From an uncultured virus (IMG/VR IMGVR_UViG_3300007542_000024) (Duplodnaviria; Heunggongvirae; Uroviricota; Caudoviricetes): 64,000 nucleotides of DNA. Below are positions 17,594 through 58,570 of the stretch, piece by piece. Made by a program: the position numbers and the translations under genes. Positions within the stretch are counted from its first letter, which is position 1. Each line of letters opens with the position of its first letter. Under the pieces are notes generated by a model. That model searched no databases. It saw only the letters and a list, made by a program, of their open reading frames with translations, and was not told the DNA's origin. The DNA lies in the IMG/VR virus record IMGVR_UViG_3300007542_000024, one strand, 5' to 3'.

Positions 17594-18268
17594 GTGAAGC
17601 CCCTCTTCCAGCCCGCGAGACCGTTCGAGGACGGGATGGGGCTTCACGTGCAGCCCCTCACAACGCTGCTTCTGCAGTTGCTTGGTCCCGAGTACATCGA
17701 CTGGGACTCCGAGGCGCTCTTCCTCGAGCTGGAAGAGCGTGGAGGCGTCCCCGTGGGTGCGATGACGCAGGAGCGCATCCAGGCGGTGCGTCTGATGCAC
17801 CGGCAGCCCTCGTTCTGGCACGACTGGGGAGTGTTCGAGAACGTGACGGCGGCCATCCTCGGACACGGCGCGGTCTTCAGCCACGCTCAGCCCCCCGATG
17901 CGCACGAGATCGCGATCGCGTTGGACGTGGCGCGCGTCTTGGACGCCTCGCGTGCCTACTCGGCCGAGGTGCTGCAGTACATCGTCAGTGCGCTACTCTA
18001 CGACGGCGTGTGGTACCTCGAGGAGCCTCTCGACCTTGCACAGGCGACCTTGGCGGACCACGACAGCACCAAGGGTATCCTTCGGGACGTAGGTCAGGTG
18101 GCTGCCGTGCTACAGCGTGTTGGGAACCGCTACATCACGACGCCTTCGACAGCGGCCGAGGTGCAGGCCAACCACGTCATAGAGGTCAGGAAGGCACGAG
18201 CGGAGTACAATCAGCAGGTGCAGGCGCAGTTGCGCCAACTTCCGCAGATCCTCCAGGAGCTACGATGA
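17594..18268 (+). CDS. Hypothetical protein
   Basis: 224-aa ORF with AGGAGG RBS. Confidence 0.75.
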   Translation: MKPLFQPARPFEDGMGLHVQPLTTLLLQLLGPEYIDWDSEALFLELEERGGVPVGAMTQERIQAVRLMHRQPSFWHDWGVFENVTAAILGHGAVFSHAQPPDAHEIAIALDVARVLDASRAYSAEVLQYIVSALLYDGVWYLEEPLDLAQATLADHDSTKGILRDVGQVAAVLQRVGNRYITTPSTAAEVQANHVIEVRKARAEYNQQVQAQLRQLPQILQELR

Positions 18269-18636
18269 GCCAGTACGACACCGTCAGGGAACAGATCATC
18301 CTCATGGCGTTCGAGGAAGAGCTCGAGAAGATCGCCGCCGGCTGGTTCACCCCCATCAAGAAGGGGCTGAAGTCGGCGGGCCACCGCATCATCTCCAAGG
18401 CGGCGCCCACGGGCAGCGGGGCGGCTACCGCTGGCATCCGCGGCCTGCGGAAGGGCGTGAAGCAGGGCAAGCGTGGCTACTGGAAGGCCGGCAAGAAGGC
18501 CAGCTTCAAGACGCGGGCGCGGGTCTTCGGAGCCAACGCCATGAACTTCGCCGCGCGGAACCCCGGTACCGCTGCTGCGGGCGTCGGCCTGGGAGCGGTC
18601 GGTGCGGGTGCTGTGGGCGCCAAGGTCCTGAGCTAA
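18265..18636 (+). CDS. Basic protein with AFEEELEKIA leader and C-terminal glycine zipper (123 aa)
   Basis: ATG 18265 after AGGAG, ATGA-coupled; Lys-rich; ends AAAGVGLGAVGAGAVGAKVLS. Confidence 0.8.
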   Translation: MSQYDTVREQIILMAFEEELEKIAAGWFTPIKKGLKSAGHRIISKAAPTGSGAATAGIRGLRKGVKQGKRGYWKAGKKASFKTRARVFGANAMNFAARNPGTAAAGVGLGAVGAGAVGAKVLS

Positions 18637-18640
18637 GCCT

Positions 18641-20572: not shown

Positions 20573-20573
20573 G

Positions 20574-20822: not shown

Positions 20823-20847
20823 GTGAGCGCTTCCGTAGGAGCCCCTC

Positions 20848-29206: not shown

Positions 29207-29214
29207 GAGAGCGC

Positions 29215-30420
29215 GTGGCGAGTTGGGTTCAGTTCGAGACGATGCCGGAGCAGGCGTCCCAGATCGCGGCCGCGGTCGATGAAGGGCAGGCCGCACTGAG
29301 TACGGTGGCTACGGTGCTCGACGGCGTGGCTACGGTGCTCAACGTCATCTCGGCCTTCGCCGTGAGCGACGTCAACGCGGCGCGCGCCATCTCCCTGGCT
29401 CTCGTAGCGCTCATCGACTCCTTGATCATGGATGTGCTCCAGAACAACGTGGGGCTCTGTCTCCACCTGAACCTGGAGTGGGATCCCGACTGGACCTACG
29501 ACGAGTCCTGGCTGGAGAACTCCCAGCTTCCGTGGAAGGCCCGCGGGGTGACCAACTGGCTGGCCGATGTCGCCGCCTCCACGCGGGATGAGTCGGACCC
29601 CCTGCGCCCCCTGACGGACGACGACACCTACGTGGGTGGCTTCATCCTGCTGCAGGGCGTCTCCAGCCACGAGGAGCTCGAAGACCTCAAGGCGCTCTTC
29701 GACATGTTCACCAACATGTCCGCGTTCCGCGAGACGCTCGACACCTACGATCGCCTGGGGAACGTCACCGAGGCCAACAAGCCCCTCACCAGGCTGGGCC
29801 CTGCCATGGCGAGCTCGCTCATGCACGCGCTGGTCTGTGACCCCGAGCAGGAGGGAGCAGCTGTGCTGGAGCAGATCGGGGCCACCACGGTCGAGGACTT
29901 CCTCCCTCTGCGAGGCAACTACCCGAAGTGGGCGTCGTTGCCCATGGCGGCCACGGTCCCTGCGATGAAGCAGCTCATCGACAAGCTGCGCCAGCTGCGC
30001 GAGTCCATCAAGCCCTCGCTGGACAAGGCCGAGCAGATCGCCCTGCTTGCCAGCCTCATCGCGAACAAGGCAGCTCTGCTCTCCGACTCGCTGGACGAGG
30101 TGGGGGAGCTGCTCGAGAGCATCGAGAGCCTGATCGCCTTCTTGCGCAGTGGAAACGTGCATTTCATCTGGATTCCCGACGACGAGCCAGGCGGGATGGC
30201 CAACTTCATCAACCGGGCCGTTACCGCCGAGAACCTGCCTGACTTCGGATCAGATGGTATTGTTGTGGGTGTCGTCGGTATCGTGACCGGAGATGATATG
30301 GCCAACCACATGCAGCGCTTCTGGGAGATGCTGGGCCTCCAAGCCGACGCTTTCGTCACCGGAACCGACACCCTGGCTGCGAACATCGACGCGGCCTTCG
30401 CAGACATCTTCCCCGAGTAG
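29215..30420 (+). CDS. Hypothetical structural protein (401 aa)
   Basis: Start reassigned to GTG 29215 after AGGAG; acidic and helical. Confidence 0.7.
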   Translation: MASWVQFETMPEQASQIAAAVDEGQAALSTVATVLDGVATVLNVISAFAVSDVNAARAISLALVALIDSLIMDVLQNNVGLCLHLNLEWDPDWTYDESWLENSQLPWKARGVTNWLADVAASTRDESDPLRPLTDDDTYVGGFILLQGVSSHEELEDLKALFDMFTNMSAFRETLDTYDRLGNVTEANKPLTRLGPAMASSLMHALVCDPEQEGAAVLEQIGATTVEDFLPLRGNYPKWASLPMAATVPAMKQLIDKLRQLRESIKPSLDKAEQIALLASLIANKAALLSDSLDEVGELLESIESLIAFLRSGNVHFIWIPDDEPGGMANFINRAVTAENLPDFGSDGIVVGVVGIVTGDDMANHMQRFWEMLGLQADAFVTGTDTLAANIDAAFADIFPE

Positions 30421-30430
30421 GAGCCCCTCC

Positions 30431-43793: not shown

Positions 43794-44822
43794 ATGAGCA
43801 CCGACGCTGCCACCCTGAACCAGCTCTTCCTGGCCCATCTGGAGCACCCCGAGGGCAAGGAGAAGCTCGCGGCCGTGGGCCGTACCTACGTGCGTGACAA
43901 GCTGCGCGAGAACAGCTTCGCCCGCAAGATCCTCCCGCCCCAGATGGTCACCAAGGCCGACATGCAGGTGTCCGTGAACCACGACACCCTCGTCTACATC
44001 GACGAGATCGAGCCCAACTCCAGGGCCATGTCGCTGACCTTCCGCGGCCAGCCCACCGCGCGCTACATCCGCGCCTCCCGCTACGAGATCCCCATCTTCA
44101 CCATCTCGAGCGAGCGCTTCGAGAAGACGGAGCAGGAGCTCCTCGCCTACCGGATGCCCATCACCCGGGTGATCGAGGACAACTCGGTCAAGGACATCCA
44201 GGAGATCGAGGACTACCGCTTCCTGGTCTACGTCGATGCGGCCATCTCCAACACCGAGCAGATCGTCAAGGGCACCCAGGCCCAGGACGATATCGAGGCC
44301 AACGGGCTGAACTCCGGCTTCCGCGGCACCCTCGAGCGCGCCGACCTGGTCCTGCTGTTCAAGGAGCTCGACTCCCGTCGTCGCCGCCTGGCCACGGTGC
44401 TGATGAACGAGGAGAACTGGGACGATGTCCTGAACTGGACCATCGAGGACTTCGGCGACAAGCAGGCCTCGGTGACCGTCGACGGCTACACCTACGACCG
44501 CCTGATGGGTCGGAAGATCATCCGTACCATCAAGACGGACATCCTCCAGACCGGCAACATCTACGGCTTCTGCGCGCCCGAGTGGCTCGGCAAGTTCCTC
44601 ATCCTGAACGCCACCAAGTTCTACATCGACAAGGTGTACAACCTGGTCATGTGGCAGGCCTGGGAGGACATCGGCATGGGCATCGGCAACATCGCCAGCA
44701 TGGCCAAGCTCGAGCTCTACAACGACACCACCGACGTCCTGATCTCCGAGGATGAGGTCGGCACCACGGTCTACAACGAGGCCGACGATGGTCTGACCTT
44801 CCCGCAGGTCAGCCACTACTAG
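43794..44822 (+). CDS. Major capsid protein (HK97 fold, putative)
   Basis: 342 aa, AGGAG RBS, strong codon bias; RDKLRENSFARKIL and DIQEIEDYRFL fit HK97-fold capsid helices; follows protease and scaffold genes. Confidence 0.75.
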   Translation: MSTDAATLNQLFLAHLEHPEGKEKLAAVGRTYVRDKLRENSFARKILPPQMVTKADMQVSVNHDTLVYIDEIEPNSRAMSLTFRGQPTARYIRASRYEIPIFTISSERFEKTEQELLAYRMPITRVIEDNSVKDIQEIEDYRFLVYVDAAISNTEQIVKGTQAQDDIEANGLNSGFRGTLERADLVLLFKELDSRRRRLATVLMNEENWDDVLNWTIEDFGDKQASVTVDGYTYDRLMGRKIIRTIKTDILQTGNIYGFCAPEWLGKFLILNATKFYIDKVYNLVMWQAWEDIGMGIGNIASMAKLELYNDTTDVLISEDEVGTTVYNEADDGLTFPQVSHY

Positions 44823-46070: not shown

Positions 46071-47003
46071 ATGGCCATCCACGACGTCCTCGCCCGCATC
46101 TACGGCCTCGACAAGACCGCCTCCGAGCAGGAGACGGAGCTCGACCTCGACAACATGAGCGCCGTCGACTTCCTCGCCGGCATCGAGAGCGGCGAGATCG
46201 TCTACGTCGACGGTGACGAGCCCGAGGCCGAGAAGACCGCCGGCGACGAGGGAGAGCTCGACCTCGACAACATGAGCGCGACCCAGCTCCTGCAGGGGCT
46301 CGAGAGCGGCGAGATCGTGTTCGACGACGGCAGCGATCCCGAGGCCGAGAAGACCGCGGGCTTCGACCTCGACAGCCTCACCCAGGAGCAGCTCGAGAGC
46401 ATGTCGGCCGAGGAGCTCATCGAGCTGGCCAACTCGCTCGACGAGGATCCCGGGGAGCAGGAGAAGGTCGCCGCCGAGCAGCAGTACTGGCTCGACGCCG
46501 GGGCCCTGATGGCGCGCGGCTACGCCTCCGAGCTGGAGAAGCTGTCCTCCGAGCAGATGCCCGACGAGCTCGAGATCGACATGAGCAAGATCACCGGCGC
46601 CGATCTCGTGGAGCTCATGGAGCACTACGAGTTCGTCGAGGACGACGAGCCCCAGGTGGAGAAGACCGCCGGCGGGCTGGGCAGCCTCCTGAAGTTCAAG
46701 GGCGCCCGGAAGGCCTTCAAGGGCTCCCGGAAGGCCGGCGAGACGGCCGAGGAGGCCCTGAAGGCGCGCAAGAGCGCCGCCAAGGACGCCGCCAAGGCGG
46801 CGGGCAAGGGCGACGACAAGGCCGTCGTCGATGCCTTCAAGCGCGGCCGCGACGCCCACAAGGCCGGCAAGGCCGCCAAGAAGGAAGCCCGCAAGCTGCG
46901 CCGCAAGGGCTACAAGAAGGCCGGGCAGAGCGCCGCGGTCTACGGCGGTGGCCTGGCCGCCGCTGGCGGACTCGCCGCGGGCACCAAGGCCGCGCTGGAC
47001 TAG
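46071..47003 (+). CDS. Scaffold-like protein B: acidic repeats plus Lys/Ala-rich tail (310 aa)
   Basis: ELDLDNMSA...ESGEIV...PEAEKTAG twice; GALMARGYASELEKLS; basic tail with terminal glycine zipper. Confidence 0.8.
   Translation: MAIHDVLARIYGLDKTASEQETELDLDNMSAVDFLAGIESGEIVYVDGDEPEAEKTAGDEGELDLDNMSATQLLQGLESGEIVFDDGSDPEAEKTAGFDLDSLTQEQLESMSAEELIELANSLDEDPGEQEKVAAEQQYWLDAGALMARGYASELEKLSSEQMPDELEIDMSKITGADLVELMEHYEFVEDDEPQVEKTAGGLGSLLKFKGARKAFKGSRKAGETAEEALKARKSAAKDAAKAAGKGDDKAVVDAFKRGRDAHKAGKAAKKEARKLRRKGYKKAGQSAAVYGGGLAAAGGLAAGTKAALD
46137..46358 (+). repeat. Imperfect tandem repeat, period about 117-120 nt, within the CDS
   Basis: GAGCTCGACCTCGACAACATGAGCGC at 46137 and 46254; CCCGAGGCCGAGAAGACCGC twice. 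Confidence 0.85.
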
Positions 47004-47073: not shown

Positions 47074-47457
47074 ATGAACGAACTGCTCGCAGGCATCTAC
47101 GGCACCGGCGACATGGAGAAGGTCGCCTCCCCCGTGGACCCGACCCGCCAGATGACCCTCGACGACCTGGCCACCGTCATCGTCGTCGACAGTCTCGGTG
47201 ACGGCGCGGACATGGAGAAGGTCGCCGAGGCGCACCAGGAGGTCTTCGCCGACCTGGTGTCCTTCGATCGCGCCGGACGCGCCATGGCCCACCACGAGTT
47301 CACCGAGATGGAGAAGATGGCGGCCGCGGGTGACACGGAGGCCCTCGAGGCCTTCTTCGCCGATGTCGAGTTCGACGACGGCGGTGAGCCCGACCCCCGT
47401 CACGCCGCGCGCGAAGCCATCGCCGCGGAGCTGCAGCGCCGCGCCGGCCTGCAGTAG
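47074..47457 (+). CDS. Acidic scaffold-like protein C (127 aa)
   Basis: AGGAGG RBS; LLAGIY, MEKVAS, MEKVAE, GRAMAHHEFTEMEKMAA. Confidence 0.8.
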   Translation: MNELLAGIYGTGDMEKVASPVDPTRQMTLDDLATVIVVDSLGDGADMEKVAEAHQEVFADLVSFDRAGRAMAHHEFTEMEKMAAAGDTEALEAFFADVEFDDGGEPDPRHAAREAIAAELQRRAGLQ

Positions 47458-48108: not shown

Positions 48109-48699
48109 ATGAGCCACTCCTTGCCCCCCGAGCTCGCCCGCGGGTTCTTCTCCGAGCTGGAGAAGGTTGCCATCCTCCTCGGTGCCGGCACCGGAGCGGT
48201 CGCTGCCGGTCAAGGGAACCGGGGCGAGGGTGCGCTGTACGGAGGTGCCGGAGGCATCTTGGGCGCCATGGCTGGCGCGACCCCGGGCGCTCTCGCTCAG
48301 ATGGCGCGCGACACTCCCAAGAAGGCACGCCGTGGGCGAGGGAAGATCTCGGCCCTGACCGCTCTCGGCGTCCTCACCGGAGAGGCTCTGGGCGGCGTCG
48401 CCGGCGGGCGCCTGGCCAAGAAGCACGCCCAGGAGCGCCGGGCAAAGCACCGGGAAGCCACCAAGAAGGCCGTGCGCGAAGCCCTCGCCGAGCAGAAGGA
48501 GAAGAAGGGCTCGGTCGAGAAGGTCGCTATCTCCGTCGCCGGTCCGGCGCAGCCGGGGGGCGCTGCGTTCGTGTTCCAGCTGGCCCGGAGTTCCCAGCGA
48601 GAGACCCAGCGCAACCTGCTGCGCCGCACCGGCAAGAAGGCGGTCAAGCTGCGCAAGAAGATCCCGGCTCCCCAGCAGGTGCCCGCCGCCGCCAAGTAG
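48109..48699 (+). CDS. Basic glycine-zipper protein with GFFSELEKVA leader
   Basis: 196 aa; ILLGAGTGAVAAG, GALYGGAGGILGAMAG; second VEKVA. Confidence 0.75.
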   Translation: MSHSLPPELARGFFSELEKVAILLGAGTGAVAAGQGNRGEGALYGGAGGILGAMAGATPGALAQMARDTPKKARRGRGKISALTALGVLTGEALGGVAGGRLAKKHAQERRAKHREATKKAVREALAEQKEKKGSVEKVAISVAGPAQPGGAAFVFQLARSSQRETQRNLLRRTGKKAVKLRKKIPAPQQVPAAAK

Positions 48700-48706: not shown

Positions 48707-49195
48707 ATGCTCTCTGCGCCGCTACAGGATGCCTTCATCGCCGAGCTGGAGAAGATCGCCTTCCTCAAGACCCTCCGGCGGGCCAAGCCCAAGACGCCGC
48801 CGAAGCGCGTACGTCGCTTCCGGGTGAAGGCCAACTCCGGGCACCAGCCCGGGGTCGTGCGCAACGGCTACCTCGAGGCACCGCCCTCCCAAGCGGAGAC
48901 CAACCGCATCGCTCGGCAGTTCCTCAAGGACCTCGAGAAGCGGTCCTTCGCCAAGGTGGTCACGAAGAACACCACCCGCGTGGCCCGTAGTGGTTGGGAG
49001 AAGGCAGTGCGCCCCAATCCGTCCGGGATGATCAACCAGACACGCGCCTGGACCATCCGCCCGCGTGGAGCCCCCGCCGCATCCCAGCGCGCCACCTCCA
49101 AGCCCACCAAGCTGAAGGGGTGGGTGCGTCGCAGCACCAAGGAAGAGGTCCGTGCGGGGCCGCGCCCCGCGCTGGCGCGGGGCGCAGTCAGCTGA
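48707..49195 (+). CDS. Very basic protein with AFIAELEKIA leader
   Basis: 162 aa, Arg/Lys-rich; exact start uncertain. Confidence 0.7.
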   Translation: MLSAPLQDAFIAELEKIAFLKTLRRAKPKTPPKRVRRFRVKANSGHQPGVVRNGYLEAPPSQAETNRIARQFLKDLEKRSFAKVVTKNTTRVARSGWEKAVRPNPSGMINQTRAWTIRPRGAPAASQRATSKPTKLKGWVRRSTKEEVRAGPRPALARGAVS

Positions 49196-49214: not shown

Positions 49215-50126
49215 ATGCTCGTTCCCGTCAACATCCGGGTCTGGACCCTCTCCCGCGACTCCCTGACCATCTCCTGGGCGTTCCGCAACACCACGGCAGC
49301 GCTGGGCGACTACAGCATCACGGTGCTGCGGTCTGGTTCCGCTGCGGGAGGGTACGAGGAGATCTCGAGCGCCTTCGCGGCAGACGCGACCGTGGAGTTC
49401 GTGGACTCCGAGGTAGTCCTGCACTCCAAGTGGCGGGAGTATTTCTACCGGCTGCGGGTCACGGCGCCCGATGGCTCGACCACGGACTTCGGCTCGGTGG
49501 ACTACAAGAGGGTCCTGGCTGGAGACGACGCCGGCGGCGTCGTGCTGGAGAGCTTGCCCGACCTGGTGGCCCTCGAGGCCATCCGGCGTTTCGACATGCT
49601 CCTGCAGACCAAGATCGGGCGGGAGCTCCTGGTGCTCAACCACAGGTCCACTGGGCAGCGCTGTGCCGAGTGTTGGGACAACTTGAAGAGGCGACGTACC
49701 AAGAGCAAGTGCCTGACCTGCTACGGCGTGGGGGTCTCCGGGGGGTACTACTTCCCCAAGCAGGCCTGGGCCGCCAAGGTACCCCACCGGGCATCCGTAC
49801 AGCTCACCCCGCTGTTCGAGATGCAGAACAACGACGCGCTCCTGTGGATGTCGTCGCGTCCACGGGTGGTCCCGCGTGACCTGGTCATCGATGCTGATGG
49901 GCGGCGCTGGCGCGTCATCGACATTCAGCGGCACGAGAAGCTGTGGGCTCTCACCCGACAGACCGTGCAGGTGCGCGAGCTGTCCAAGGACCAGGTGGAG
50001 TACGACATCCCGATCTCGGCTGACGAGTGGGACATCGACCCGGTGGCGGCCACGCCCTACAGGCAGTACATCAATGCTACGAACCTCGACAGTCACCGTC
50101 GAGCGAAGCGGGAGCTTGGCCTATGA
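49215..50126 (+). CDS. Putative head-closure/neck protein with N-terminal FN3-like domain
   Basis: LTISW...YSITVLRS...YFYRLRV; CAEC...CLTCYG Zn motif; PRDLVID...RWRV. Confidence 0.55.
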   Translation: MLVPVNIRVWTLSRDSLTISWAFRNTTAALGDYSITVLRSGSAAGGYEEISSAFAADATVEFVDSEVVLHSKWREYFYRLRVTAPDGSTTDFGSVDYKRVLAGDDAGGVVLESLPDLVALEAIRRFDMLLQTKIGRELLVLNHRSTGQRCAECWDNLKRRRTKSKCLTCYGVGVSGGYYFPKQAWAAKVPHRASVQLTPLFEMQNNDALLWMSSRPRVVPRDLVIDADGRRWRVIDIQRHEKLWALTRQTVQVRELSKDQVEYDIPISADEWDIDPVAATPYRQYINATNLDSHRRAKRELGL

Positions 50127-50674
50127 TCATGCCCACCCTCTCCGTCGCAACCGTCCGCGCCTTCCAAGGCGAGCTGGTCAAGATCGCGAAGGTGACCCCA
50201 GCTACCGTGGCCCTCGGGGCGCTCGCGGGAGGCAGCGCTGGGGCACTGGCGCACAAGCACTACACCAAGGACGAGCGGTCGAAGGACGAACTGCTGCGGG
50301 ACCTGAAGCGCATGCCCGAGAAGACCTACCAGGCTCGGCGCAAGGAGCGGGGTGCGCGCACGGCAGGCGCGGCGGCGCTCGGCGCCATGACGGGCGCGGG
50401 GGCTCCCGTGCTCTACAGGGAGGCGGCCCGAGCTGTTGGGCGCGCAGTGGACCGCACGGTCAAGCCCACGCTGCAGACGGCCAAGAGCGGGATCGACGAC
50501 TCCGTTGAGAAGGGCGTCGCCGAGTACGACCGCATGCTGCAGCGCCAGGCCGACTACCTGCTCGACCAGCTCCGCGGTCCGCGGGGGGCACGCGCCGCCG
50601 AGACCCTCGGGGAGAGTGCGCGCAAGGGCTTCCTGCCCAGGTTCCTCCGCCGGCGGAGGGCCAACCCGCAGTGA
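50123..50674 (+). CDS. Glycine-zipper protein with AFQGELVKIA leader (183 aa)
   Basis: ATG 50123, ATGA-coupled; VALGALAGGSAGALA, AGAAALGAMTGAG. Confidence 0.75.
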   Translation: MIMPTLSVATVRAFQGELVKIAKVTPATVALGALAGGSAGALAHKHYTKDERSKDELLRDLKRMPEKTYQARRKERGARTAGAAALGAMTGAGAPVLYREAARAVGRAVDRTVKPTLQTAKSGIDDSVEKGVAEYDRMLQRQADYLLDQLRGPRGARAAETLGESARKGFLPRFLRRRRANPQ

Positions 50675-51264
50675 GCCTCTCCCTGACCAGACACGCCTTC
50701 GAGGTCGAGCTCACCAAGATCGCCCAGCACAAGTGGCGCAAGGTGGAGAAGCCTCCTGTCGCCCTCGATGCCGCGGCGGCCATCGCTACCGGGCTCGGGC
50801 TCGGCGCGACGGGCTACATGGGCGCGCGTTTCGGGTACCCGAAGCTGATGAAGCTCCTCGGACGGCCGGTGGAGCGCCCCTCCAAGAAGGCTCGCGCCAT
50901 CGCTGCCCTCTTGGCAGGGCTGGCAGGAATGGGCACACTGGAACTCGGCAGGAGATGGGTGAATGACAAGACCCGGCCAGCAAGCGGCATACGAGCTCGT
51001 CGAGCAGTACAACCCGATCACGGGCAACTGGCTCGCGGACACGAAGGACATCCTGCTCAGGTTCCTCCAAGACTTCTTCTATCAGATGCCGGCGGGGATG
51101 GACCTGTTCCACTTCGAACCGGGGGAGGAGGACTACAGCACGGCGGAGACGGAGACGGAGCTGATCGTTTCCGACGCCGGAGCGGTAGGTACCGATACCG
51201 TGGAGACGCGCCCGGCGATCTTGATTTCGCGGGGCCCATTCGCCTACGGCAACGTCAGTCTTGA
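50671..51264 (+). CDS. Glycine-zipper protein with AFEVELTKIA leader
   Basis: Two hydrophobic segments in the first 100 aa; 3' half overlaps the next gene by about 300 nt. Confidence 0.65.
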   Translation: MSLSLTRHAFEVELTKIAQHKWRKVEKPPVALDAAAAIATGLGLGATGYMGARFGYPKLMKLLGRPVERPSKKARAIAALLAGLAGMGTLELGRRWVNDKTRPASGIRARRAVQPDHGQLARGHEGHPAQVPPRLLLSDAGGDGPVPLRTGGGGLQHGGDGDGADRFRRRSGRYRYRGDAPGDLDFAGPIRLRQRQS

Positions 51265-54700: not shown

Positions 54701-54817
54701 ACCTTCTCCATCTCCAGCATCGGCGTGGACCCGGATGCCTCCGACACCGTGAACGTCACCGTCGTCATCTCGGTGCCCTACCCCTGCAACTACATCGCCA
54801 TCGAGCTCCAGGTCTGA
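51755..54817 (+). CDS. Contractile tail sheath protein, enlarged (1020 aa)
   Basis: N-terminal RPGIQV...LIGP; C-terminal YFLVPLT, HVEAMS, YLAAAVAG, GLTN, RHQLTT, REWSI, VPYPCNYIAIEL. Confidence 0.85.
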   Translation: MSITRPGIQVSTTETTSSPTIVQPTLRACLIGPCFRLIDAFDDEGALDSDAYAGTYRDGYGTIAYDLPSFGAEDDLTGFDDEVRVFLVNSDDSYTELNSSSDEETLEAGTGDYTQASGVFEDGAALFESEGVEAGDVVRLAYMGVTYDIVIESVDGETLLTIDNTGVPENLSNVAYTVVRNPAQFAYQSSAQQSYVLLGEEGDYLSIQTQPLGDYAGSTGDGLSLTLQETSAYTSGADLAYGDCVFYDSDADKSFETAVDLEDTNYLFIGAGPGTTLTAITAVYDDNTLIVATGEGADQTGLSYVVGKQTDSGDNGATAGGDETAFSAAGQNFLTSIPQVGGAGTAPLADTFLYISGVGVYQITEVTSDEALVIAAGAGAGLSGKDFETVEVIQADTTGCFFDDDELLSPSDDFSDVPAEVTDYDVVVGGVGYTIASIAAGKVTVDAALPGDGGAAQSYGVYITDADLLVQWDATAETLTVTLARADGLSVGTLDSLYDALTNDEAEGYDADVAEVFTAAEEVGSGDLTDYLGTYTFDGGADADQLLLDADLMGSTVPTGRVYVSYKALRLDVTPAAEEPQLLSYESTTESVAALGAANAENPLSLAFYKALQNATGKSVAGIGVDDVSAARPMGTAEAYDAAFSFLEGESVYFLVPLTQDVVVQQALQVHVEAMSEPENKAFRCCLINQVLPEYSSATLVSSGTDLNTEADFATTGTMTASVDFVAAGVEAGDIVIVAALADSASSPDVAYGTQGPLYGFVVEEVGPDDDNFTLTLDVADHAALAALWASQVDVSFSIYRSGSAISTASAQATALAEIGPNFDSARVVLVWPDEVLASIDSTEQAIEGFYLAAAVAGKKSRLPPQRGLTNSTVAGFTGLRHSSGYFSSSQLDEIAGGGTMIFMQETAGGALKCRHQLTTDVASIERREWSIRTTIDYTAMFFQQSLARQVGVNNITQSYLDSLATQIQGLGRYLVEAGVLSTFSISSIGVDPDASDTVNVTVVISVPYPCNYIAIELQV

Positions 54818-55665
54818 TGTACGCCTTCCTCGGCTTTCGCAGCGAACTGAACAAGATCGCTGCCTCGGACAACCCAGACGTCACGCGAATGCTCGCGGCG
54901 GCGCTGGACTCCCAGGATCGAGCCGAGCGTCTCGAAGGCTTGCTGGACGCCTCCAAGAAGTCCGCCTACCCCAAGGCCATTGCCGCCGGGGCGCTGGCGG
55001 GCTTCGGGATGCCCTTCCTCTACGGCGTCCTGCCGACTCTCCAGGGACGCAAGGCGCTGGAGGAGGCGGTACAGCAGCGTGTCAACGAGAAGTACCTGAC
55101 CGCGGCCGTCGAGGACATCCTCGGGCTGTCCGGCAAGGATGCCCGCGGGACCGCCCAGTCCATCATGGGCTTCATGAAGTCCAAGCCAGCCGCTTGGACT
55201 TCGGCTGGCGAGGAGGCGTTGAAGTCGCTGCGGCTGGCCCGAGGCACCCAACCCGCCCAAGGCGCCTTTGCTCTGATGGGGCAGGGCGGGACTCCCATCG
55301 TCGGGCAGATGGGCTTCCGCACCTCGGGCGAAGGCCTGGCGCAGACCCTGCGCCAGGCTGGGATGGGAGGGGACGTCGCGCGGCGCTACGTCATGGAGTC
55401 CTCCCCCTCGGTGGTCCACGCCTTCCCCGAAGGGATGGAGTGGCGCAACATCATCGAGGACTCGCGTGAGGTCTACAAGCGCAAGCACGGCAAGTTGCCG
55501 AAGTCCGGTGCCCGTCTGAAGATCCTGAGCAAGATCCTGGCCGAGAAGAGCGTGGGCGCGGCGCGCAGCGCGCTTCCCTTTGCTCTCTTGGGCGGCGGAC
55601 TCGCCGCGCTTCGGGTACGTTCGAAGCGCCAGCAAGCCGAAGACCTCCGACGGAGAATCGGATGA
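54817..55665 (+). CDS. Protein with GFRSELNKIA leader and two hydrophobic segments (282 aa)
   Basis: ATG 54817, TGATG-coupled to the sheath gene. Confidence 0.75.
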   Translation: MYAFLGFRSELNKIAASDNPDVTRMLAAALDSQDRAERLEGLLDASKKSAYPKAIAAGALAGFGMPFLYGVLPTLQGRKALEEAVQQRVNEKYLTAAVEDILGLSGKDARGTAQSIMGFMKSKPAAWTSAGEEALKSLRLARGTQPAQGAFALMGQGGTPIVGQMGFRTSGEGLAQTLRQAGMGGDVARRYVMESSPSVVHAFPEGMEWRNIIEDSREVYKRKHGKLPKSGARLKILSKILAEKSVGAARSALPFALLGGGLAALRVRSKRQQAEDLRRRIG

Positions 55666-56708
55666 GCACCTCCATGACCGATCGTGAAGCCCTGATCCGC
55701 TTCCTGCAGCTCCCTGCCTCACAGCGGCAGGAGGTGGCGCAGTCCGTGCGCAAGGCCGGGAAGGCTGGCAGGGTCGCAGGCGGCGCTGCGGGCTTCACCG
55801 CGGGTGCCGTGGCCACCAGCCCGCTCATCCGAGCCATCGCCAAGGTGAAGAACCCCGTCACGCAGACCCTGCTGCTCTCCGCCACGGTGGGAGCGGGGCA
55901 CGTGGCCCCCACCATGGCAGGCGCCCGACTCGGCAAGCGAGTGGCCGAGAAGCGCCACTTCAAGGGGAAGCTGAAGCGCCTGCAGGCGCCGGCTCTCATG
56001 CAGTCGGGGTACCCCCTGCAGAAGGCAGCCCAGGACAGCCGGGAGGACATCGTACTCCGCGGCCGAACGATGGCGCATGCCTTCTACGACGAGATCGAGA
56101 AGTTGGCGGAAGCCGCCGTGCGCCGTGAGCGCTTGATGCCCAAGGAGTCTCCCGTGCAGGGTGTCCTGGGTGCCGATGTGGAGCAGGAAGACGACAAGAA
56201 CGCGCGCGCGGTCCCTGTGCTGGACCCGCCGCCTGGCTACGTGTTCTCCCCCGAGCTCGGAGCCTTCACGCCCGACCCCGCCAACCCTGGCTGGATGACG
56301 CCTGAGCAGGCCGAAGAGGCCCGCAAGCACAAGCTCTACTACGATGAGGGCTACCAGGCGGCCGCGCAGAACCAGGAAGAGGTGGCCCAGATGGAGCAGC
56401 AGGGCGCCCAGATGTCACCGCAGCCCGGGATGCCGGGTACGCCTGGCGACATCGCGGGCTCTGGTCAGGGGCCTGCAGCGATGCAGCCCGGTGCCGATCC
56501 TGCTGCCGGTCAGGCCGCAGCCGCGGGCCAGCCCGCACAACCCGGGGGCCAGGCGGCAGCGCCTGCTCCCGGCACGGAGGCGGCAGCGCAAGCTGCGGGA
56601 CAGCCCACGCCTCCCCCTGCCCCGGAGGCTGAGCAGCCGGCCTCTTCCCCGTCGCCCAAGAACAAGAAGCCTTCGTCCCGGGACATCACCATCAAGGTGA
56701 GCCGGTAG
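55662..56708 (+). CDS. Glycine-zipper protein with internal AFYDEIEKLA motif and Pro/Gln/Ala tail
   Basis: 348 aa; VAGGAAGFTAGAVA; GRTMAHAFYDEIEKLAE. Confidence 0.75.
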   Translation: MSTSMTDREALIRFLQLPASQRQEVAQSVRKAGKAGRVAGGAAGFTAGAVATSPLIRAIAKVKNPVTQTLLLSATVGAGHVAPTMAGARLGKRVAEKRHFKGKLKRLQAPALMQSGYPLQKAAQDSREDIVLRGRTMAHAFYDEIEKLAEAAVRRERLMPKESPVQGVLGADVEQEDDKNARAVPVLDPPPGYVFSPELGAFTPDPANPGWMTPEQAEEARKHKLYYDEGYQAAAQNQEEVAQMEQQGAQMSPQPGMPGTPGDIAGSGQGPAAMQPGADPAAGQAAAAGQPAQPGGQAAAPAPGTEAAAQAAGQPTPPPAPEAEQPASSPSPKNKKPSSRDITIKVSR

Positions 56709-56720
56709 AGGAGACCCCCC

Positions 56721-57476
56721 ATGGCCACGATGTCCGACTGGAACTTCTTCAACCGCAACGTACAGAGCGGCATGCTCGAGGGGCGGTTCATGAATGCGGC
56801 CTTCACGCTGGTGGCCGCGGGGCCGCCACGGCTCGCCGCAGCCGGCGTGGACGTGGAGAGCGGCGAGCTCACGGAGCTGGGCAACATCGCCTACCCCATC
56901 GGCGTGCTGCAGAGCATCAACCTGGGCCAGAACTCCAACATCGTCCGGCTGTGGGAGATCGGCTCCATGCGGAGCTACTTCGCCCGCGGGCGGACCATGG
57001 GTCAGGTCGGGCTCGGCCGCATCATGTACCACGGCCCCTCCCTGCTGCGCGTGATGTACGCCTACCTGGGCGGGCGGCTCGACACGGGCGAGGAGTTCCT
57101 CGCGCTGTACGAGAACTCGGCCAAGGCCAAGCTCAACACCAGCGGTGAGGAGGGAGGCAAGCAGGTCTACCGGCTCCCGCCGGGCTACGAGAACCTGTGG
57201 CTGGACCTGGCCTCCGACGTCTTCGACCAGCCCATCGGCCTGCTGGTCTACATGCGCGACTCCAACGAGGACACCATCGGCGCGTTCTACCTGGAGTACT
57301 GCATGATCGCCAACCACGGGTGGATGGCGGACGCCTTCGGCACCATCATGTCCGAGAACGTCGGCGTGATGTACGAGCGCATCATCCCCATCGACATCCG
57401 TGCCGTGGAGCTCATCCGGTCCAGCGAGGACGTGGAGAGCATCGTGGGCGCGAACGTGATCGGCAGCGCGGCCTAG
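56721..57476 (+). CDS. Tail tube protein (putative)
   Basis: IGVLQSINL, RLWEIGS, FYLEYCMI, SENVGVMYERI pattern of myovirus tube proteins; last gene of the late operon. Confidence 0.7.
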   Translation: MATMSDWNFFNRNVQSGMLEGRFMNAAFTLVAAGPPRLAAAGVDVESGELTELGNIAYPIGVLQSINLGQNSNIVRLWEIGSMRSYFARGRTMGQVGLGRIMYHGPSLLRVMYAYLGGRLDTGEEFLALYENSAKAKLNTSGEEGGKQVYRLPPGYENLWLDLASDVFDQPIGLLVYMRDSNEDTIGAFYLEYCMIANHGWMADAFGTIMSENVGVMYERIIPIDIRAVELIRSSEDVESIVGANVIGSAA

Positions 57477-58570
57477 GCTACGCGAGGTACCGCGGGAGCC
57501 GCTCCGGCAGCGCCCGGGGCAGCGGGCTGAGGGATGCGCCGGTGGCGGAAGTTCCCGGCGGCGGGCTGCAGCTCTGCACGCATGGCGGGGTTCTGCGGGC
57601 GGTCCTCCAGGTGACGCTTGAGGGCCACCGCGCCCGTCAGGCCCGCAAGGGCTCCGCCTCCGATCATGGCCGGAACGCCGGTGAGGTGCTTCAGTCGGAA
57701 GTACCTGTAGGCCGAGGGGGCCCGCGGGACCTTCCCCGTGGCCGCGGTGATGGCTGCCTTCTCACGCGACATCGCCTTGGACTTGGCCTCGCCCACGGCG
57801 TGCTCGGCCTGGCGGAACACGCCCTGGCGGTCGAAGCCCCGCTGTGGGGCGAAACGAGCCTCGACGCCCGTGTCCACCTTGAGCTTGTCCCCGCCCAACC
57901 CGTCGAAGGCCGACCGGATGCTCTTGGACATCCGGTCGTAGTCGTAGACGTCCATCTGCCAGGCGCCGCGCTTCCGCCGCTCGAGCTGCTTCCGGATCTG
58001 GGCGGTGGGCTTCTCCAGCCGGATGGCCACATCGAAGTGACCCGGGTTGGCCTTGGTGAAGATGTGGCTCTGGTCCATGACGATGCCCTTGCGGCCCTTC
58101 AGCCCAGCGCTCTCGATGTACTTCTCGACCTGGCGCCCCTTGGTGAGGTGCTTGCCAGCCGCGTCCAGGTCGCGATGCTCCAGGCCGAGCTGCCTGGCGA
58201 GCTCGCGCGCCAGCGTGGTCTTGCCCGTGCCTCCCGTGGCGCCGATTGCGATGTTGATCTTCTTCGGATCCAGGCCTCGGCGTCGAATCTCCTTGGCGAT
58301 GGCCTTGGCCTGCGCGATGACCTGGGGAGGGGTGCCCCGCTTGGCCGCTTCCTGGGCCTCTATCGCCCGGGCGCCTCCCTTGCCGATGCTGGCGAGGTGG
58401 GCGCCGAGCTCGATGCGCAAGCCCTTGTACCTGCCCAGCACCCCGGCGGTACCCGCGGCCGTTCCGGCAGCCGCGCCGCCGGCTCCGGCCATCACGTCAC
58501 CCTCGTCCACACGGGGAGCAGCGATCTTCTCGAGCTCGTCACAGAAGGCGTAGTAGGTCGTGCCGGACAT
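57473..58570 (-). CDS. P-loop nucleoside/nucleotide kinase-like protein with AFCDELEKIA leader and flanking glycine zippers
   Basis: IAIGATGGTGKTTLARELARQLG...DLD; GGAGGT RBS; TATGAT -10-like box at 58591-58596. Confidence 0.8.
   Translation of the reverse strand: MSGTTYYAFCDELEKIAAPRVDEGDVMAGAGGAAAGTAAGTAGVLGRYKGLRIELGAHLASIGKGGARAIEAQEAAKRGTPPQVIAQAKAIAKEIRRRGLDPKKINIAIGATGGTGKTTLARELARQLGLEHRDLDAAGKHLTKGRQVEKYIESAGLKGRKGIVMDQSHIFTKANPGHFDVAIRLEKPTAQIRKQLERRKRGAWQMDVYDYDRMSKSIRSAFDGLGGDKLKVDTGVEARFAPQRGFDRQGVFRQAEHAVGEAKSKAMSREKAAITAATGKVPRAPSAYRYFRLKHLTGVPAMIGGGALAGLTGAVALKRHLEDRPQNPAMRAELQPAAGNFRHRRIPQPAAPGAAGAAPAVPRVA

What the first reader, a model, noticed from the sequence alone, without database searches (positions are those of the whole stretch)
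18265..58570. Shared 'FxxELxKIA' leader on nine dissimilar proteins: candidate capsid-targeting/cargo-loading system
Seen: nine genes scattered through the virion module carry the same ~10-residue motif within their first 25 residues and are otherwise dissimilar: 18265 AFEEELEKIA, 38557 AFQQELEKIA, 41829 SFATELEKLA, 48109 GFFSELEKVA, 48707 AFIAELEKIA, 50123 AFQGELVKIA, 50671 AFEVELTKIA, 54817 GFRSELNKIA, 58570(-) AFCDELEKIA. Internal copies occur in 55662 (AFYDEIEKLA) and 46071 (GYASELEKLS). I did not see it in replication, tail or accessory proteins. Established: T4 internal proteins share a short N-terminal capsid-targeting sequence removed by the gp21 prohead protease. Inference: this is an analogous, portable amphipathic helix that addresses diverse cargo into the prohead and ends in a protease site, so new genes can be recruited to the virion by acquiring about 30 nt.
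Basis: partly seen in the sequence, partly recalled or inferred. Interest (0 to 1): 0.92.

Follow-up and report, generated by a model that had tools for sequence, protein, structure and literature searches.

The report
Shared head-loading leader on phage proteins
An uncultured large phage starts many unrelated, mostly small and basic proteins with the same short helix, which probably works as a cut-off address label that loads them into the virus head, much as phage T4 does but with a different label and a lysine-based cutting signal.

Summary
All nine N-terminal copies and both internal copies of [FY]-x-x-E-[LI]-x-K-[ILV]-[AS] are at the stated places. The 110.7-kb contig holds 15 copies; the reversed sequence holds none.

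The carriers are unrelated outside the tag. All 13 N-terminal carriers are basic after it. In IMG/VR the exact F-x-D-E-L-E-K-I-A lies within 12 residues of a start codon in 77 of 79 cases, on contigs with related capsid genes. There it also heads a NUDIX hydrolase, a papain-like amidase and an SNF2-type helicase.

The tag's end, K-[TVI]-A, is ten times denser in head-module proteins than elsewhere. It also marks capsid protein residues 24-26 and three disordered segments of protein 39711-41396: its N-terminal tail, the interdomain linker and a segment near the C-terminus. That protein has the T4 gp21 / herpesvirus protease fold (Z 8.9).

Best reading: a T4-like capsid-targeting propeptide with a new sequence and a lysine-based cutting rule. 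Neither cutting nor packaging has been measured. Earlier notes of this scan report the same leader on other DNA of this lineage. My text searches found no paper on it.

The parts
18265..18636 (+). Leader protein (123 aa from ATG 18265, or 111 aa from ATG 18304). The motif FEEELEKIA is at nt 18310-18336. The rest is basic with a Gly/Ala-rich hydrophobic C-terminus.
   Evidence: (GC3 0.88-0.89)
38557..39102 (+). Leader protein, 181 aa. The motif FQQELEKIA is at nt 38581-38607. Basic and Gly-rich.
41829..42128 (+). Small leader protein, 99 aa, Pro-rich and basic, lying between the protease and the scaffold-like genes. The motif FATELEKLA is at nt 41841-41867. It is the most widely conserved carrier; in alignment A2 F5, E8, K11 and P69 are the only invariant residues.
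   Evidence: AlphaFold2 model with helix 2-15 and the rest disordered
46071..47003 (+). Acidic, repeat-containing scaffold-like protein with five K-[TV]-A sites plus one K-L-S site inside an internal leader-like copy (YASELEKLS, nt 46521-46547, residue 151). It ends in a basic tail.
48109..48699 (+). Leader protein, 196 aa. The motif FFSELEKVA is at nt 48145-48171, followed by a glycine-zipper-like hydrophobic segment. Net charge +24 after the leader.
48707..49195 (+). Leader protein, 162 aa. The motif FIAELEKIA is at nt 48734-48760. Very basic, +29 after the leader.
50123..50674 (+). Leader protein, 183 aa. The motif FQGELVKIA is at nt 50162-50188, followed by a Gly/Ala-rich hydrophobic segment.
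50671..51264 (+). Leader ORF. The motif FEVELTKIA is at nt 50698-50724. The coding signature holds only for about the first 90 codons, and the remainder overlaps gene 50963-51736, so the true C-terminus is uncertain.
54817..55665 (+). Leader protein, 282 aa, directly after the sheath gene. The motif FRSELNKIA is at nt 54835-54861.
55662..56708 (+). 348-aa protein with an internal leader-like copy (FYDEIEKLA, nt 56082-56108, residue 141) at the joint between a basic Gly-rich N-terminal part and an acidic Pro/Gln-rich C-terminal part.
57473..58570 (-). Leader protein, 365 aa, on the minus strand. The motif FCDELEKIA is at nt 58546-58520. It has a weak P-loop kinase-like match (Pfam SKI at E 3.4e-4, AAA_18 at 6.2e-4, both below the curated cut-offs).
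39711..41396 (+). Candidate head-maturation protease, 561 aa. Residues 59-277 have the T4 gp21 / herpesvirus protease fold. H142, H143 and S199-M-G are invariant. K-x-A sites at residues 41, 306 and 508 lie in predicted disordered segments; the site at 268 is at the end of domain 1; the site at 463 is inside a helix.
43794..44822 (+). Major capsid protein, 342 aa, with K-L-A at residues 24-26. [ED]-K-[IVLM]-[AS] is at the aligned position in nearly all relatives' capsid genes listed.
   Evidence: (phrog_2522, 1.2e-12)
41393..41824 (+). Acidic scaffold-like protein, 143 aa, with four K-[TV]-A sites.
47074..47457 (+). Acidic scaffold-like protein, 127 aa, with three K-[VM]-A sites.
42834..43220 (+). 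Helical 128-aa protein with a weak match to capsid scaffolding protein Gp46 (Pfam DUF4355, E 0.022). Conserved next to the capsid gene in relatives.
30293..32449 (+). 718-aa conserved protein of unknown role with 12 K-[TVIL]-[AS] sites. Only some of the sites are conserved in position in two relatives.
16443..17585 (+). 380-aa protein with six K-[TVL]-A sites, upstream of the weak portal candidate 18641-20572.
37673..38557 (+). 294-aa protein with seven K-[TVL]-[AS] sites. The first, F-L-T-K-L-A, is at residues 4-9.

Best explanation
The peptide M-x(2-14)-[A/S/G]-[F/Y]-x-[D/E]-E-[L/M]-x-K-[I/V/L]-[A/S] is a portable N-terminal propeptide.

Inferred mechanism, by analogy with T4:
1. It forms a short helix that holds the carrier in the assembling prohead core.
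2. Its last residues (hydrophobic-x-K-[I/V/T]-A) are the recognition site of the phage's own head-maturation protease, protein 39711-41396, which has the gp21 / assemblin fold.
3. After the shell closes, the protease clips the leader off. It also chops the acidic scaffold-like proteins, trims about 25 residues from the capsid protein, and processes itself at its disordered linkers.
4. This leaves a changeable set of mostly small, basic proteins and some enzymes inside the head, to be delivered into the host with the DNA.

Shown here:
- The tag is real, N-terminal, conserved at the peptide level, modular and lineage-wide.
- Its core is the signal enriched in head proteins.
- A gp21-fold protease is encoded in the head module.

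Inferred:
- Binding to the prohead core.
- Cutting, and which bond is cut: after K, which would mirror T4's L/I-x-E rule with Lys in place of Glu, or after A.
- Packaging and ejection.
For: Real and N-terminal:
- 15 copies in the contig against 0 in the reversed sequence, and about 0.02 expected from shuffles.
- 13 of the 15 lie within 16 residues of the ORF start.

Selection acts on the peptide, not the DNA:
- Relatives with 45-67% G+C keep the residues with different codons.
- In five further contigs the degenerate pattern gave 30 matches against 3 for the control.

Modular:
- The carriers share no similarity with each other.
- None of the 15 has a BLASTP hit at E <= 0.01 in two complete relatives whose capsid protein is 51% identical.
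- Among 55 leader proteins from IMG/VR, the leader heads a NUDIX domain (5e-12), DUF6321 (4e-25), a C92/NlpC-P60-like amidase (6.7e-6, 0.3 bit under the cut-off), a ResIII/SNF2 N-terminus (5e-4) and several weak glycine-zipper matches.

Contrast with cells:
- In IMG/VR, 77 of 79 instances of F-x-D-E-L-E-K-I-A have a start codon within 12 residues upstream.
- In 596 Gb of prokaryote genomes only 7 of 70 look N-terminal, and some of those are phage contigs binned into MAGs.

Link to head maturation:
- EK[TVILM]A occurs 32 times against 2.8 +/- 1.6 in shuffles.
- K[TVI]A occurs 6.47 per 1000 aa in the head set against 0.64 elsewhere. Permuted controls differ by at most 2.1-fold.
- Observed against composition-expected: 27 against 4.4 in the head module, and about as expected in the replication, baseplate/fibre, sheath and right-arm groups.
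- The signal is at capsid protein residues 24-26 and at the aligned position in nearly all relatives listed.
- In the protease family it is conserved inside indel-rich linkers that AlphaFold2 predicts as disordered: 1-46, 272-331 and 500-520.

Protease identity:
- VIA-align Z 8.9, rmsd 2.9 A, 131 residues aligned to T4 gp21 (5jbl_B). The next 30 rows are all herpesvirus proteases (Z 7.5-4.2), and the first unrelated row is at Z 4.1.
- hhalign probability 98.3%, E 2.6e-14 to the protein annotated 'capsid maturation protease' in Gordonia phage Pupper.
- phrog_18299 'head maturation protease' is hit by 16 of 31 family members.
- His142/143 and Ser199 are invariant.

Cargo character and leader structure:
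- 13 of 13 N-terminal carriers are net positive after the leader, median +12.2 per 100 aa, against -1.8 for 99 other proteins (Mann-Whitney p = 7.8e-8).
- The leader is modelled as a helix, residues 2-15, mean pLDDT 88 over the first ten residues.

Precedent (passages read):
- T4 CTS, 10 residues, cut by gp21 at L/I-x-E: PMC9026906, PMC3012670, PMC5694885.
- P1 DarB N-terminal 30-residue signal: PMC9024508.
Against: - There is no direct evidence that any carrier is in a virion, that any K-x-A site is cut, or that the leader binds a head component.
- No cultured phage carries the leader. Salmonella phage Arash (capsid 34% identical) lacks it in the 91 kb I inspected, and its published supplement held here has no peptide-level data.
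- Some carriers sit among tail genes (54817, 55662) or on the opposite strand (57473), so a tail or other destination is not excluded.
- Many K-x-A sites of protein 30293-32449 are not conserved in position in two relatives, and one site of the protease lies inside a confident helix. Not every site can therefore be a cut site.
- The enrichment is strong in this contig and in relative G005 (18 against 5.8 +/- 2.1) but absent for EKxA in relative G001 (5 against 4.0 +/- 1.8).
- The 'head set' was chosen by me and includes the leader genes, which inflates that contrast somewhat.
- Sequence models of the known protease families do not match the contig: Pfam S77, S78, ClpP and S49 give no hit at E <= 1. 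Foldseek alone gave no hit at E <= 0.001.
- The fused RNA polymerase, which in Arash is the most abundant virion protein by spectra (PMC10585845), has no leader here or in two relatives. The tag therefore cannot be the only route into the head.
Confidence: 0.55

Rival explanations
1. Cut site only. The leader is simply an efficient N-terminal substrate site for the head protease, for example keeping membrane-active or DNA-binding proteins inert until they are inside the head. Entry into the head is decided by other features, such as positive charge or the glycine-zipper segments.
For: - The core L-x-K-[IV]-A is the same as the generic head-protein signal.
- The cargo is uniformly basic, and many carriers have Gly/Ala-rich hydrophobic segments.
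- The RNA polymerase has no leader.
Against: - The extra conserved positions [A/S]-[F/Y]-x-[D/E]-E upstream of the core are specific to the N-terminal class and are kept across 45-67% G+C relatives. That suggests a function beyond the minimal site.
- The generic sites do without these positions.
Confidence: 0.2
2. Docking helix that is not cut. The leader binds a virion component (portal, scaffold, capsid interior, tail lumen) or the phage RNA polymerase, and stays on the mature protein.
For: - It is predicted as a confident short helix.
- Helical hydrophobic moment is above the shuffle mean in 15 of 15 copies.
- Some carriers are encoded among tail genes.
Against: It does not explain why the same K-[TVI]-A core recurs many times in acidic, repeat-rich scaffold-like proteins and in disordered linkers of the protease itself. 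That is the pattern known for cleavage sites in T4 and in phiKZ-like phages (PMC9026906).
Confidence: 0.12
3. Membrane-targeting helix. This is a family of small phage membrane proteins (lysis, superinfection exclusion, ejection channel), and the amphipathic N-terminus lies on the membrane next to a glycine-zipper transmembrane segment.
For: - Several carriers have Gly/Ala-rich hydrophobic segments.
- Six of 55 IMG/VR leader proteins give weak matches to glycine-zipper Pfam families (E 2e-4 to 0.18, all below the cut-offs).
Against: - Carriers without any hydrophobic segment exist: 48707 is highly basic, and there are NUDIX, amidase and SNF2-type helicase carriers.
- The leader is acidic and lacks a signal-peptide-like hydrophobic core.
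- This reading does not explain the head-module K-x-A code.
Confidence: 0.08
4. Not a peptide signal. The conservation reflects either a nucleotide element at translation starts or common descent of a paralogous family.
For: All copies lie at gene starts.
Against: - Codons differ freely between genomes while the residues stay the same, for example TTC GAG CTG AAG ATC against TTT GAA CTT AAA ATT.
- The carriers include different folds and show no similarity to each other.
Confidence: 0.02

Closest known systems
Capsid targeting sequence (CTS) of phage T4 internal proteins IPI-III and Alt, removed by prohead protease gp21
   Same: - A short N-terminal peptide, 10-20 residues, shared by otherwise unrelated, fast-changing, basic proteins.
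- It ends in the head protease's site.
- The protease has the same fold (Z 8.9 to gp21).
- The scaffold-like proteins carry many sites.
- The capsid protein and the protease itself carry sites too (PMC9026906, passages read; PMC5694885).
   Different: - A different leader sequence.
- The conserved signal is hydrophobic-x-K-[TVI]-A, not L/I-x-E.
- The protease does not match Pfam Peptidase_S77 and carries an extra roughly 170-residue helical domain.
- There are many more carriers: 15 in two thirds of a genome.
- The carriers include enzymes.
- Nothing has been measured.
Propeptides of head and ejection proteins of phiKZ-like giant phages (phiKZ gp175, SPN3US gp245, 201phi2-1)
   Same: - Many head proteins are processed by a gp21-like protease at a short motif.
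- Some propeptides are inferred to target proteins to the head.
- An ejection protein has a transmembrane segment after its propeptide.
- The virion RNA polymerase is packaged (PMC5694885; PMC9026906).
   Different: - Those sites end in Glu (A/S/G-x-E).
- Their propeptides are mostly longer than 100 residues and are not one shared sequence, except for the identical 15 N-terminal residues of SPN3US gp53 and gp54.
- Here a single roughly 10-residue consensus is reused on unrelated proteins.
N-terminal packaging signal of phage P1 DarB
   Same: An N-terminal segment of 30 residues or fewer is sufficient to send a foreign protein into the capsid (PMC9024508, passages read).
   Different: It is known for one protein, is not a motif shared by many proteins, and has not been tied to a cleavage code.
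Herpesvirus assemblin maturation and release sites (recalled, not from a call)
   Same: - The same protease fold (Z 7.5-4.2).
- As I recall it, those sites have Ala at P1 and a small residue after it, which resembles ...K-[TVI]-A-[S/A/G].
   Different: - The recalled herpesvirus consensus has a hydrophobic residue, not Lys, two places before the Ala.
- There is no shared N-terminal address tag on unrelated cargo.
Prp-processed N-terminal extension shared by ribosomal protein L27 and by the capsid and scaffold proteins of staphylococcal phage 80alpha (recalled, not from a call)
   Same: A short N-terminal motif shared by unrelated proteins and removed during assembly.
   Different: - The cut is made by a host cysteine protease.
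- The motif is different.
- It is limited to capsid and scaffold proteins, with no diverse cargo.

Membership tests
T4-type capsid-targeting propeptide (CTS) system | The same short peptide at the N-terminus of otherwise unrelated proteins | tested here: met
   13 N-terminal copies in the contig, with no similarity outside the tag. 77 of 79 IMG/VR instances lie within 12 residues of a start codon.
T4-type capsid-targeting propeptide (CTS) system | The phage encodes a head-maturation protease of the gp21 / assemblin fold among its head genes | tested here: met
   AlphaFold2 model of 39711-41396. VIA-align Z 8.9, rmsd 2.9 A, 131 residues aligned to T4 gp21, followed by 30 herpesvirus protease rows. 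hhalign 98.3% to an annotated capsid maturation protease.
T4-type capsid-targeting propeptide (CTS) system | The leader ends in the cleavage site of that protease | tested here: inconclusive
   The core K-[TVI]-A is ten times enriched in head proteins and sits in the protease's disordered linkers and at the capsid protein's N-terminus. No cleavage has been measured.
T4-type capsid-targeting propeptide (CTS) system | Cleavage rule L/I-x-E | tested here: not met
   In the sets collected with K required, the flanking positions give hydrophobic-x-K-[TVI]-A. No Glu-ended site follows the leader.
T4-type capsid-targeting propeptide (CTS) system | The carriers are inside the mature head and are ejected | not testable with these tools
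   No cultured member and no proteome. Basic charge and gene position are only consistent with it.
T4-type capsid-targeting propeptide (CTS) system | The leader alone sends a foreign protein into the head | not testable with these tools
Pfam Peptidase_S77 (T4 gp21 family), by sequence | Match to the family model above its cut-off | tested here: not met
   No match at E <= 1 in the contig. No Pfam family for any of the 31 members at a meaningful level.
Pfam Peptidase_S78 (HK97 gp4 family), by sequence | Match to the family model above its cut-off | tested here: not met
   No match at E <= 1 in the contig. The ESM Atlas lists S77 and S78 clusters only as nearest named leads, at 0.90-0.91.
Sec, Tat or lipoprotein signal peptide | Basic n-region, hydrophobic core of 7-15 residues, A-x-A or lipobox | tested here: not met
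   By inspection of 57 aligned instances, the leader is acidic and amphipathic and has neither a hydrophobic core nor a Cys.

The most novel reading that the evidence does not exclude
A widespread lineage of uncultured 130-200-kb phages uses a lysine-coded version of the T4 head-loading system. A gp21-fold protease has switched its key recognition residue from Glu to Lys (hydrophobic-x-K). One roughly 10-residue helical tag ending in that code is enough to load any protein into the capsid for injection with the DNA. Loaded proteins include small basic DNA-binding or membrane-active proteins and also enzymes such as NUDIX hydrolases, cell-wall amidases, SNF2-type helicases and kinases. The tag would thus be a natural, freely exchangeable protein-delivery address whose cargo list can be read straight from genome sequence.
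Probability: 0.4. Interest if true: 0.75.

Novelty: new variant of a known kind. Interest (0 to 1): 0.62.

Why it matters
If the reading is right, the injected and internal proteome of a large uncultured phage group can be listed from sequence alone by looking for the tag. This contig has 15 carriers in about two thirds of a genome.

It would show that the 'load, then clip' logic of T4 is older and more flexible than its Glu-based rule. It would give a second, unrelated address tag for packaging foreign proteins into capsids. It would also point to candidate host-takeover and anti-defence proteins, the fast-changing basic cargo, in phages that nobody has grown.

It is also a clean case for testing how a short linear motif spreads among unrelated genes.

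Tried and rejected
- Complex prediction (leader with the protease domain) was unavailable, so no binding test was made.

Sequence searches for the protease that found nothing useful:
- phmmer against PDB with the single protein and with the profile A1.
- Pfam on the window protein and on all 31 members.
- The search for homologous proteins among shorter proteins: 6 hits, fragments, no protease family.
- Foldseek against PDB: nothing at E <= 0.001; the weak rows were gp21 and herpesvirus proteases.

Portal not settled:
- 18641-20572 has only a weak PHROG portal hit (5.8e-4).
- It has no PDB hit.
- Portal_T4 has no match in the contig.

Cultured relatives:
- Arash has no leader and no obvious shared N-terminal motif in 91 kb inspected. 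Its supplement held here is a feature table without peptides.
- Gordonia phage Pupper's protease and capsid proteins show no clear K-[TVI]-A code by eye.

Other checks:
- The largest carrier (contig 9317-11152, 611 aa) has no family and no named Atlas neighbour.
- The RNA polymerase N-terminus (FADLKSKVS) looked leader-like, but it is not conserved in two relatives, so I rejected it.
- I considered an internal translation start for the two internal copies and rejected it: there is no Shine-Dalgarno-like sequence, and the upstream residues are conserved.

Literature:
- 'DELEKIA' occurs in 0 papers, and the 'ELEKIA' hits listed are plant names and unrelated words.
- Two further searches on lysine-type head-protease sites found nothing relevant (one paper checked).
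- A statement that the tag is unpublished rests only on these searches of the open-access library.

Slips: test reference too short; wrong coordinates, with stop codons; too many words.

Full report
**What the window is.** The window is bases 41,433-105,432 of a 110,689-bp IMG/VR virus contig estimated to be 65% complete, with 65-68% G+C.

Genes identified:
- A replication arm on the minus strand: DNA polymerase, primase, DnaB-like helicase and UvsX-like recombinase.
- A long plus-strand structural block:
  - a single 2036-aa protein that fuses the beta and beta' parts of a multisubunit RNA polymerase, 20848-26958
  - a gp5-like spike
  - large terminase, 34502-36199
  - major capsid protein, 43794-44822
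  - a 1020-aa sheath-like protein, 51755-54817

The nearest cultured phages are distant: Salmonella phage Arash (capsid 34% identical) and Vibrio phages D69, D148 and D181. IMG/VR holds at least 228 stretches encoding a capsid relative, among them complete genomes of 185-193 kb.

- The whole contig holds 15 copies. The four extra ones lie at contig positions 8168, 9338, 12145 and 12707, next to an SNF2-type helicase and a sigma-like gene.
- The reversed sequence has none. Residue shuffles of a 33,843-residue proxy proteome gave a mean of 0.016 matches.
- A weight-matrix scan puts the 15 copies at 20.1-32.4 bits and the next candidates at 19.4, 18.1 and 15.7 bits.
- 13 of the 15 copies begin 3-16 residues after a usable start codon. 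Two are internal, at residue 151 of the 46071 protein and residue 141 of the 55662 protein.
- The internal copies have no Shine-Dalgarno-like sequence in front. In relatives the residues before the methionine (G-R-x-M-A-H-[AS]) are conserved, so they are truly internal.

**A peptide signal, portable and lineage-wide.**

- In the 80 loci around relatives' capsid genes, the pattern occurs 57 times. That count includes six in L009, which is identical to the window.
- All but four of the 57 lie 2-11 residues from a start codon. The genomes range from 45 to 67% G+C.
- In 57 distinct instances the residue before F/Y is A, S or G in 53. Position +4 is L (39), M (12), I (5) or V (1). Position +7 is I (41), L (7), V (6) or M (3). 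E at +3 and K at +6 were fixed by my pattern.
- Codons differ freely between genomes.
- The exact DNA pattern for F-x-D-E-L-E-K-I-A hits 96 stretches of IMG/VR. Of the 79 instances in the 80 loci fetched, 77 have a start codon within 12 residues and 44 have an in-frame stop within 30 residues upstream.
- Five of five such contigs tested encode a capsid relative, 32-62% identical. Each holds 4-8 matches to the looser pattern: 30 matches against 3 for the control.
- Complete relatives vary in copy number: 8, 4, 2, 1 and 1 matches, against 2 control matches in all.
- As a contrast, the same pattern hits 70 places in 596 Gb of prokaryote genomes. Most are inside ordinary proteins. Only 7 of 70 look N-terminal, and some of those are phage contigs binned into MAGs.

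**The carriers.**

- With the motif removed, no two carriers are similar at E < 0.01. The only exception is an internal repeat within the 46071 protein.
- None of the 15 has a BLASTP hit at E <= 0.01 in two complete relatives whose capsid protein is 51% identical. phmmer gave three weak hits, the best at 0.0036.
- All 13 N-terminal carriers are net positive after the leader, with a median of +12.2 per 100 residues. The 99 other proteins have a median of -1.8, and 36% of them are positive (p = 7.8e-8).
- Many carriers have Gly/Ala-rich hydrophobic stretches.
- One carrier, 57473-58570(-), has a weak P-loop kinase-like match. One outside the window has a zinc ribbon at E 1.7e-5, below the cut-off.
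- Among 55 leader proteins from other contigs, the tag heads a NUDIX domain (5e-12, above the cut-off) and DUF6321 (4.4e-25). It also heads a C92/NlpC-P60-like amidase (6.7e-6, just under the cut-off) and a ResIII/SNF2 helicase N-terminus (5.3e-4, under the cut-off). Six of the 55 give weak glycine-zipper matches.
- The tag is therefore a module placed on different folds, not the conserved end of one family.

**The link to head maturation.** While reading the head-module proteins I saw that the end of the tag recurs on its own.

- EK[TVILM]A occurs 32 times in a crude gene set of 34,336 residues, against 2.8 +/- 1.6 in 300 shuffles.
- By module, K[TVI]A is observed 27 times against 4.4 expected in 37.7-51.3 kb, and 6 against 1.0 in 16.4-20.6 kb.
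- The group that holds protein 30293-32449 has 13 against 3.5.
- The replication, baseplate/fibre, sheath and right-arm groups are at about expectation.
- In a head set of 28 proteins, which I chose and which includes the leader genes, K[TVI]A runs at 6.47 per 1000 residues against 0.64 elsewhere.
- The permuted controls A[TVI]K, KA[TVI] and [TVI]KA differ by at most 2.1-fold. R[TVI]A differs 1.7-fold, K[LM]A 3.3-fold and K[DENQ]A 3.1-fold.
- The sites cluster in acidic, repeat-rich, scaffold-like proteins. The 41393 protein has four. The 46071 protein has six K-[TVL]-[AS] sites, one of them the K-L-S of the internal leader copy. The 47074 protein has three.
- A site sits at capsid protein residues 24-26, and [ED]-K-[IVLM]-[AS] is at the aligned position in nearly all relatives listed.
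- Generic sites prefer K-T-A or K-V-A with a hydrophobic residue two places before K. Leaders prefer K-I-A and add [A/S]-[F/Y]-x-[D/E]-E in front.
- The EKxA enrichment is also seen in relative G005 (18 against 5.8 +/- 2.1) but not in G001 (5 against 4.0 +/- 1.8).

**The protease.** Protein 39711-41396 (561 aa) lies four genes upstream of the capsid gene.

- Sequence models say nothing about it. Pfam S77, S78, ClpP and S49 have no match anywhere in the contig.
- An alignment of 31 relatives has invariant H142, H143, N145, S199-M-G and D207.
- 16 of the 31 members hit phrog_18299 'head maturation protease', best E 5.7e-6.
- The N-terminal domain finds the Arash homologue gp222, a protein that paper lists as structural, at 36.6% identity and E 1e-31. 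It also finds Gordonia phage Pupper gp94, annotated 'capsid maturation protease', at E 8e-7. Pupper gp94 lies two genes before that phage's major head protein.
- hhalign of the family against Pupper gp94 gives probability 98.3%, E 2.6e-14, with the HHxN and SMG motifs aligned.
- The AlphaFold2 model has mean pLDDT 74.4. It shows two confident domains (47-271 and 332-499) and disordered segments at 1-46, 272-331 and 500-520.
- VIA-align puts residues 59-258 on T4 gp21 (5jbl_B) at Z 8.9, rmsd 2.9 A, 131 residues. The next 30 rows are all herpesvirus proteases (Z 7.5-4.2), and the first unrelated row is at Z 4.1. Foldseek alone gave no significant row.
- Three of the protein's five K-x-A sites (residues 41, 306, 508) fall in the three disordered segments. 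One (268) lies at the end of domain 1. One (463) lies inside a confident helix.
- Across relatives, the sites in the N-terminal tail, in the linker and near the C-terminus are conserved within otherwise variable, gap-rich sequence.
- This is the pattern expected of self-processing at domain borders, as discussed for T4 gp21 (PMC9026906, passages read).

- The leader is a short helix. In the AlphaFold2 model of the 41829 family, residues 2-15 are helical with mean pLDDT 88 over the first ten residues, and the rest is disordered.
- The upstream half, [A/S]-[F/Y]-x-[D/E]-E, is specific to N-terminal tags. The downstream half, [L/M]-x-K-[I/V]-A, is the head protease's signal.
- By analogy with T4, the tag would hold the carrier in the prohead core and be removed on maturation. 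In the 10-residue T4 CTS, targeting and processing also map to different residues (PMC9026906).

Which bond is cut cannot be told from sequence.

- Hydrophobic-x-K| would mirror T4's L/I-x-E| with Lys in place of Glu. It fits the variable residue before K in the leaders.
- A|[S/A/G] would resemble the herpesvirus sites as I recall them.

The two internal copies sit at joints between unlike halves of their proteins. There a cut would release two products.

**What argues against it.**

- No carrier has been seen in a virion, and no site has been seen cut.
- No cultured phage has the tag. Arash lacks it in the 91 kb inspected, and the one supplement held for its paper has no peptides.
- The Arash paper reports 116 proteins in virion preparations, including the RNA polymerase subunits, a sigma factor, a helicase, a cell-wall hydrolase and pyrophosphohydrolases (PMC10585845, passages read). 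These are the same enzyme classes as some tagged cargo here. That list is broad and may include contaminants, as its authors note.
- Some carriers are encoded among tail genes.
- Several K-x-A sites of protein 30293-32449 are not conserved in position.
- The RNA polymerase has no tag, so other routes into the virion must exist.

**Comparison with what is known, and novelty.**

- In working principle this is closest to the T4 CTS and gp21 system, and to the propeptides of phiKZ-like phages.
- It fails the T4 sequence rule (L/I-x-E) and the Pfam S77 model, but meets the fold test. I therefore file it as a new variant of a known kind, not as a member of the T4 family.
- My literature searches found no description of this tag or of a lysine-based head-protease code. 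They cover only the open-access library.
- Earlier notes of this scan report the same A-F-x-D-E-L-E-K-I-A leader and a K-x-A code in other genomes of the lineage: e1-5881856, e1-5678599, e1-5799381 and e1-5347361. I read them after reaching the same view. They are unchecked AI notes and not independent evidence.

- the fold-level identification of the protease
- the placement of its own sites in disordered linkers
- the contrast with prokaryote genomes
- the enzyme cargo in relatives
- the count for this contig

Noticed in passing
window 20848-26958 (+): A single 2036-aa ORF fuses the beta part (Pfam Rpb2 domain 6, 1.6e-59) and the beta' part (Rpb1 domains 1, 2, 4, 5) of a multisubunit RNA polymerase. 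It lies directly upstream of a gp5-like spike gene. It is full-length in the Vibrio phages D69, D148 and D181, where it is interrupted by a homing endonuclease in two of the three, and it is split in Arash. It has no leader.
   Followed up: partly
relatives' orthologues of window 39711-41396, e.g. L072:2706-6224 and L041:2827-6846: In many relatives the protease gene is two to two-and-a-half times longer, 937-1339 aa, with the homology split into two or three blocks. ESM Atlas structural neighbours of those lengths carry LAGLIDADG and Hint domains, so these are probably inteins inserted in the protease.
   Followed up: partly
window 47074-47457, 46071-47003, 41393-41824; relatives such as L072:6324-7208 and L055:6949-7752: The acidic scaffold-like proteins share a second N-terminal motif, roughly [E/D]-[F/L]-L-A-x-x-Y-G-[T/L], followed 5-20 residues later by a K-[TV]-A site. 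In several relatives this protein also carries the internal leader-like copy about 125 residues in.
   Followed up: no
window 50671-51264 against 50963-51736: The leader ORF keeps a coding GC3 signature (0.77-0.90) for only about 90 codons. Its last roughly 100 codons overlap the next gene out of frame and look non-coding (GC3 0.23-0.50). Possible causes are an assembly indel, a frameshift or an overprinted tail.
   Followed up: partly
contig 11149-12003 (outside the window, upstream of its start): A 284-aa very basic protein (+36) ends, 12 residues before its stop codon, with a leader-like S-F-W-Q-E-L-A-Q-I-A-A. This has Q in place of K and scores 19.4 bits. It could be a C-terminal variant or chance.
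   Followed up: no
window 8515-9705 (-): An unannotated 396-aa protein in the replication arm has W-E-A-E-I-Y-K-I-A at residue 25 (18.1 bits). It is the only leader-like site outside the structural and virion-protein blocks.
   Followed up: no
contig 6372-8147 (outside the window); L155, L120 and L190 in relatives: This contig's SNF2-type helicase starts with only a short W-F-Q-K-L-A at residues 5-10. The SNF2-type proteins of some relatives start with the full leader, F-V-D-E-L-E-K-I-A, followed by the helicase motif.
   Followed up: partly
G005:144813-145613 (-) and G001:46316-47218 (+), sigma-like genes of two relatives: The sigma-like proteins of two relatives have N-terminal extensions with near-leader sequences: F-E-E-W-L-E-K-D-A, and E-F-L-G-L-Q-E-G-A-E-K-Q-A-A. 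This contig's sigma-like protein lacks the extension.
   Followed up: no
window about 28680-29280: A stretch of about 600 nt after the spike gene shows no clear GC3 frame signal, and the ORFs there are ambiguous: 28526-29206 (+), 28450-30420 (+) and 29143-30162 (-).
   Followed up: no
whole window: ARAGORN finds no tRNA gene in the 64 kb. The distant relative Arash carries tRNA clusters.
   Followed up: no
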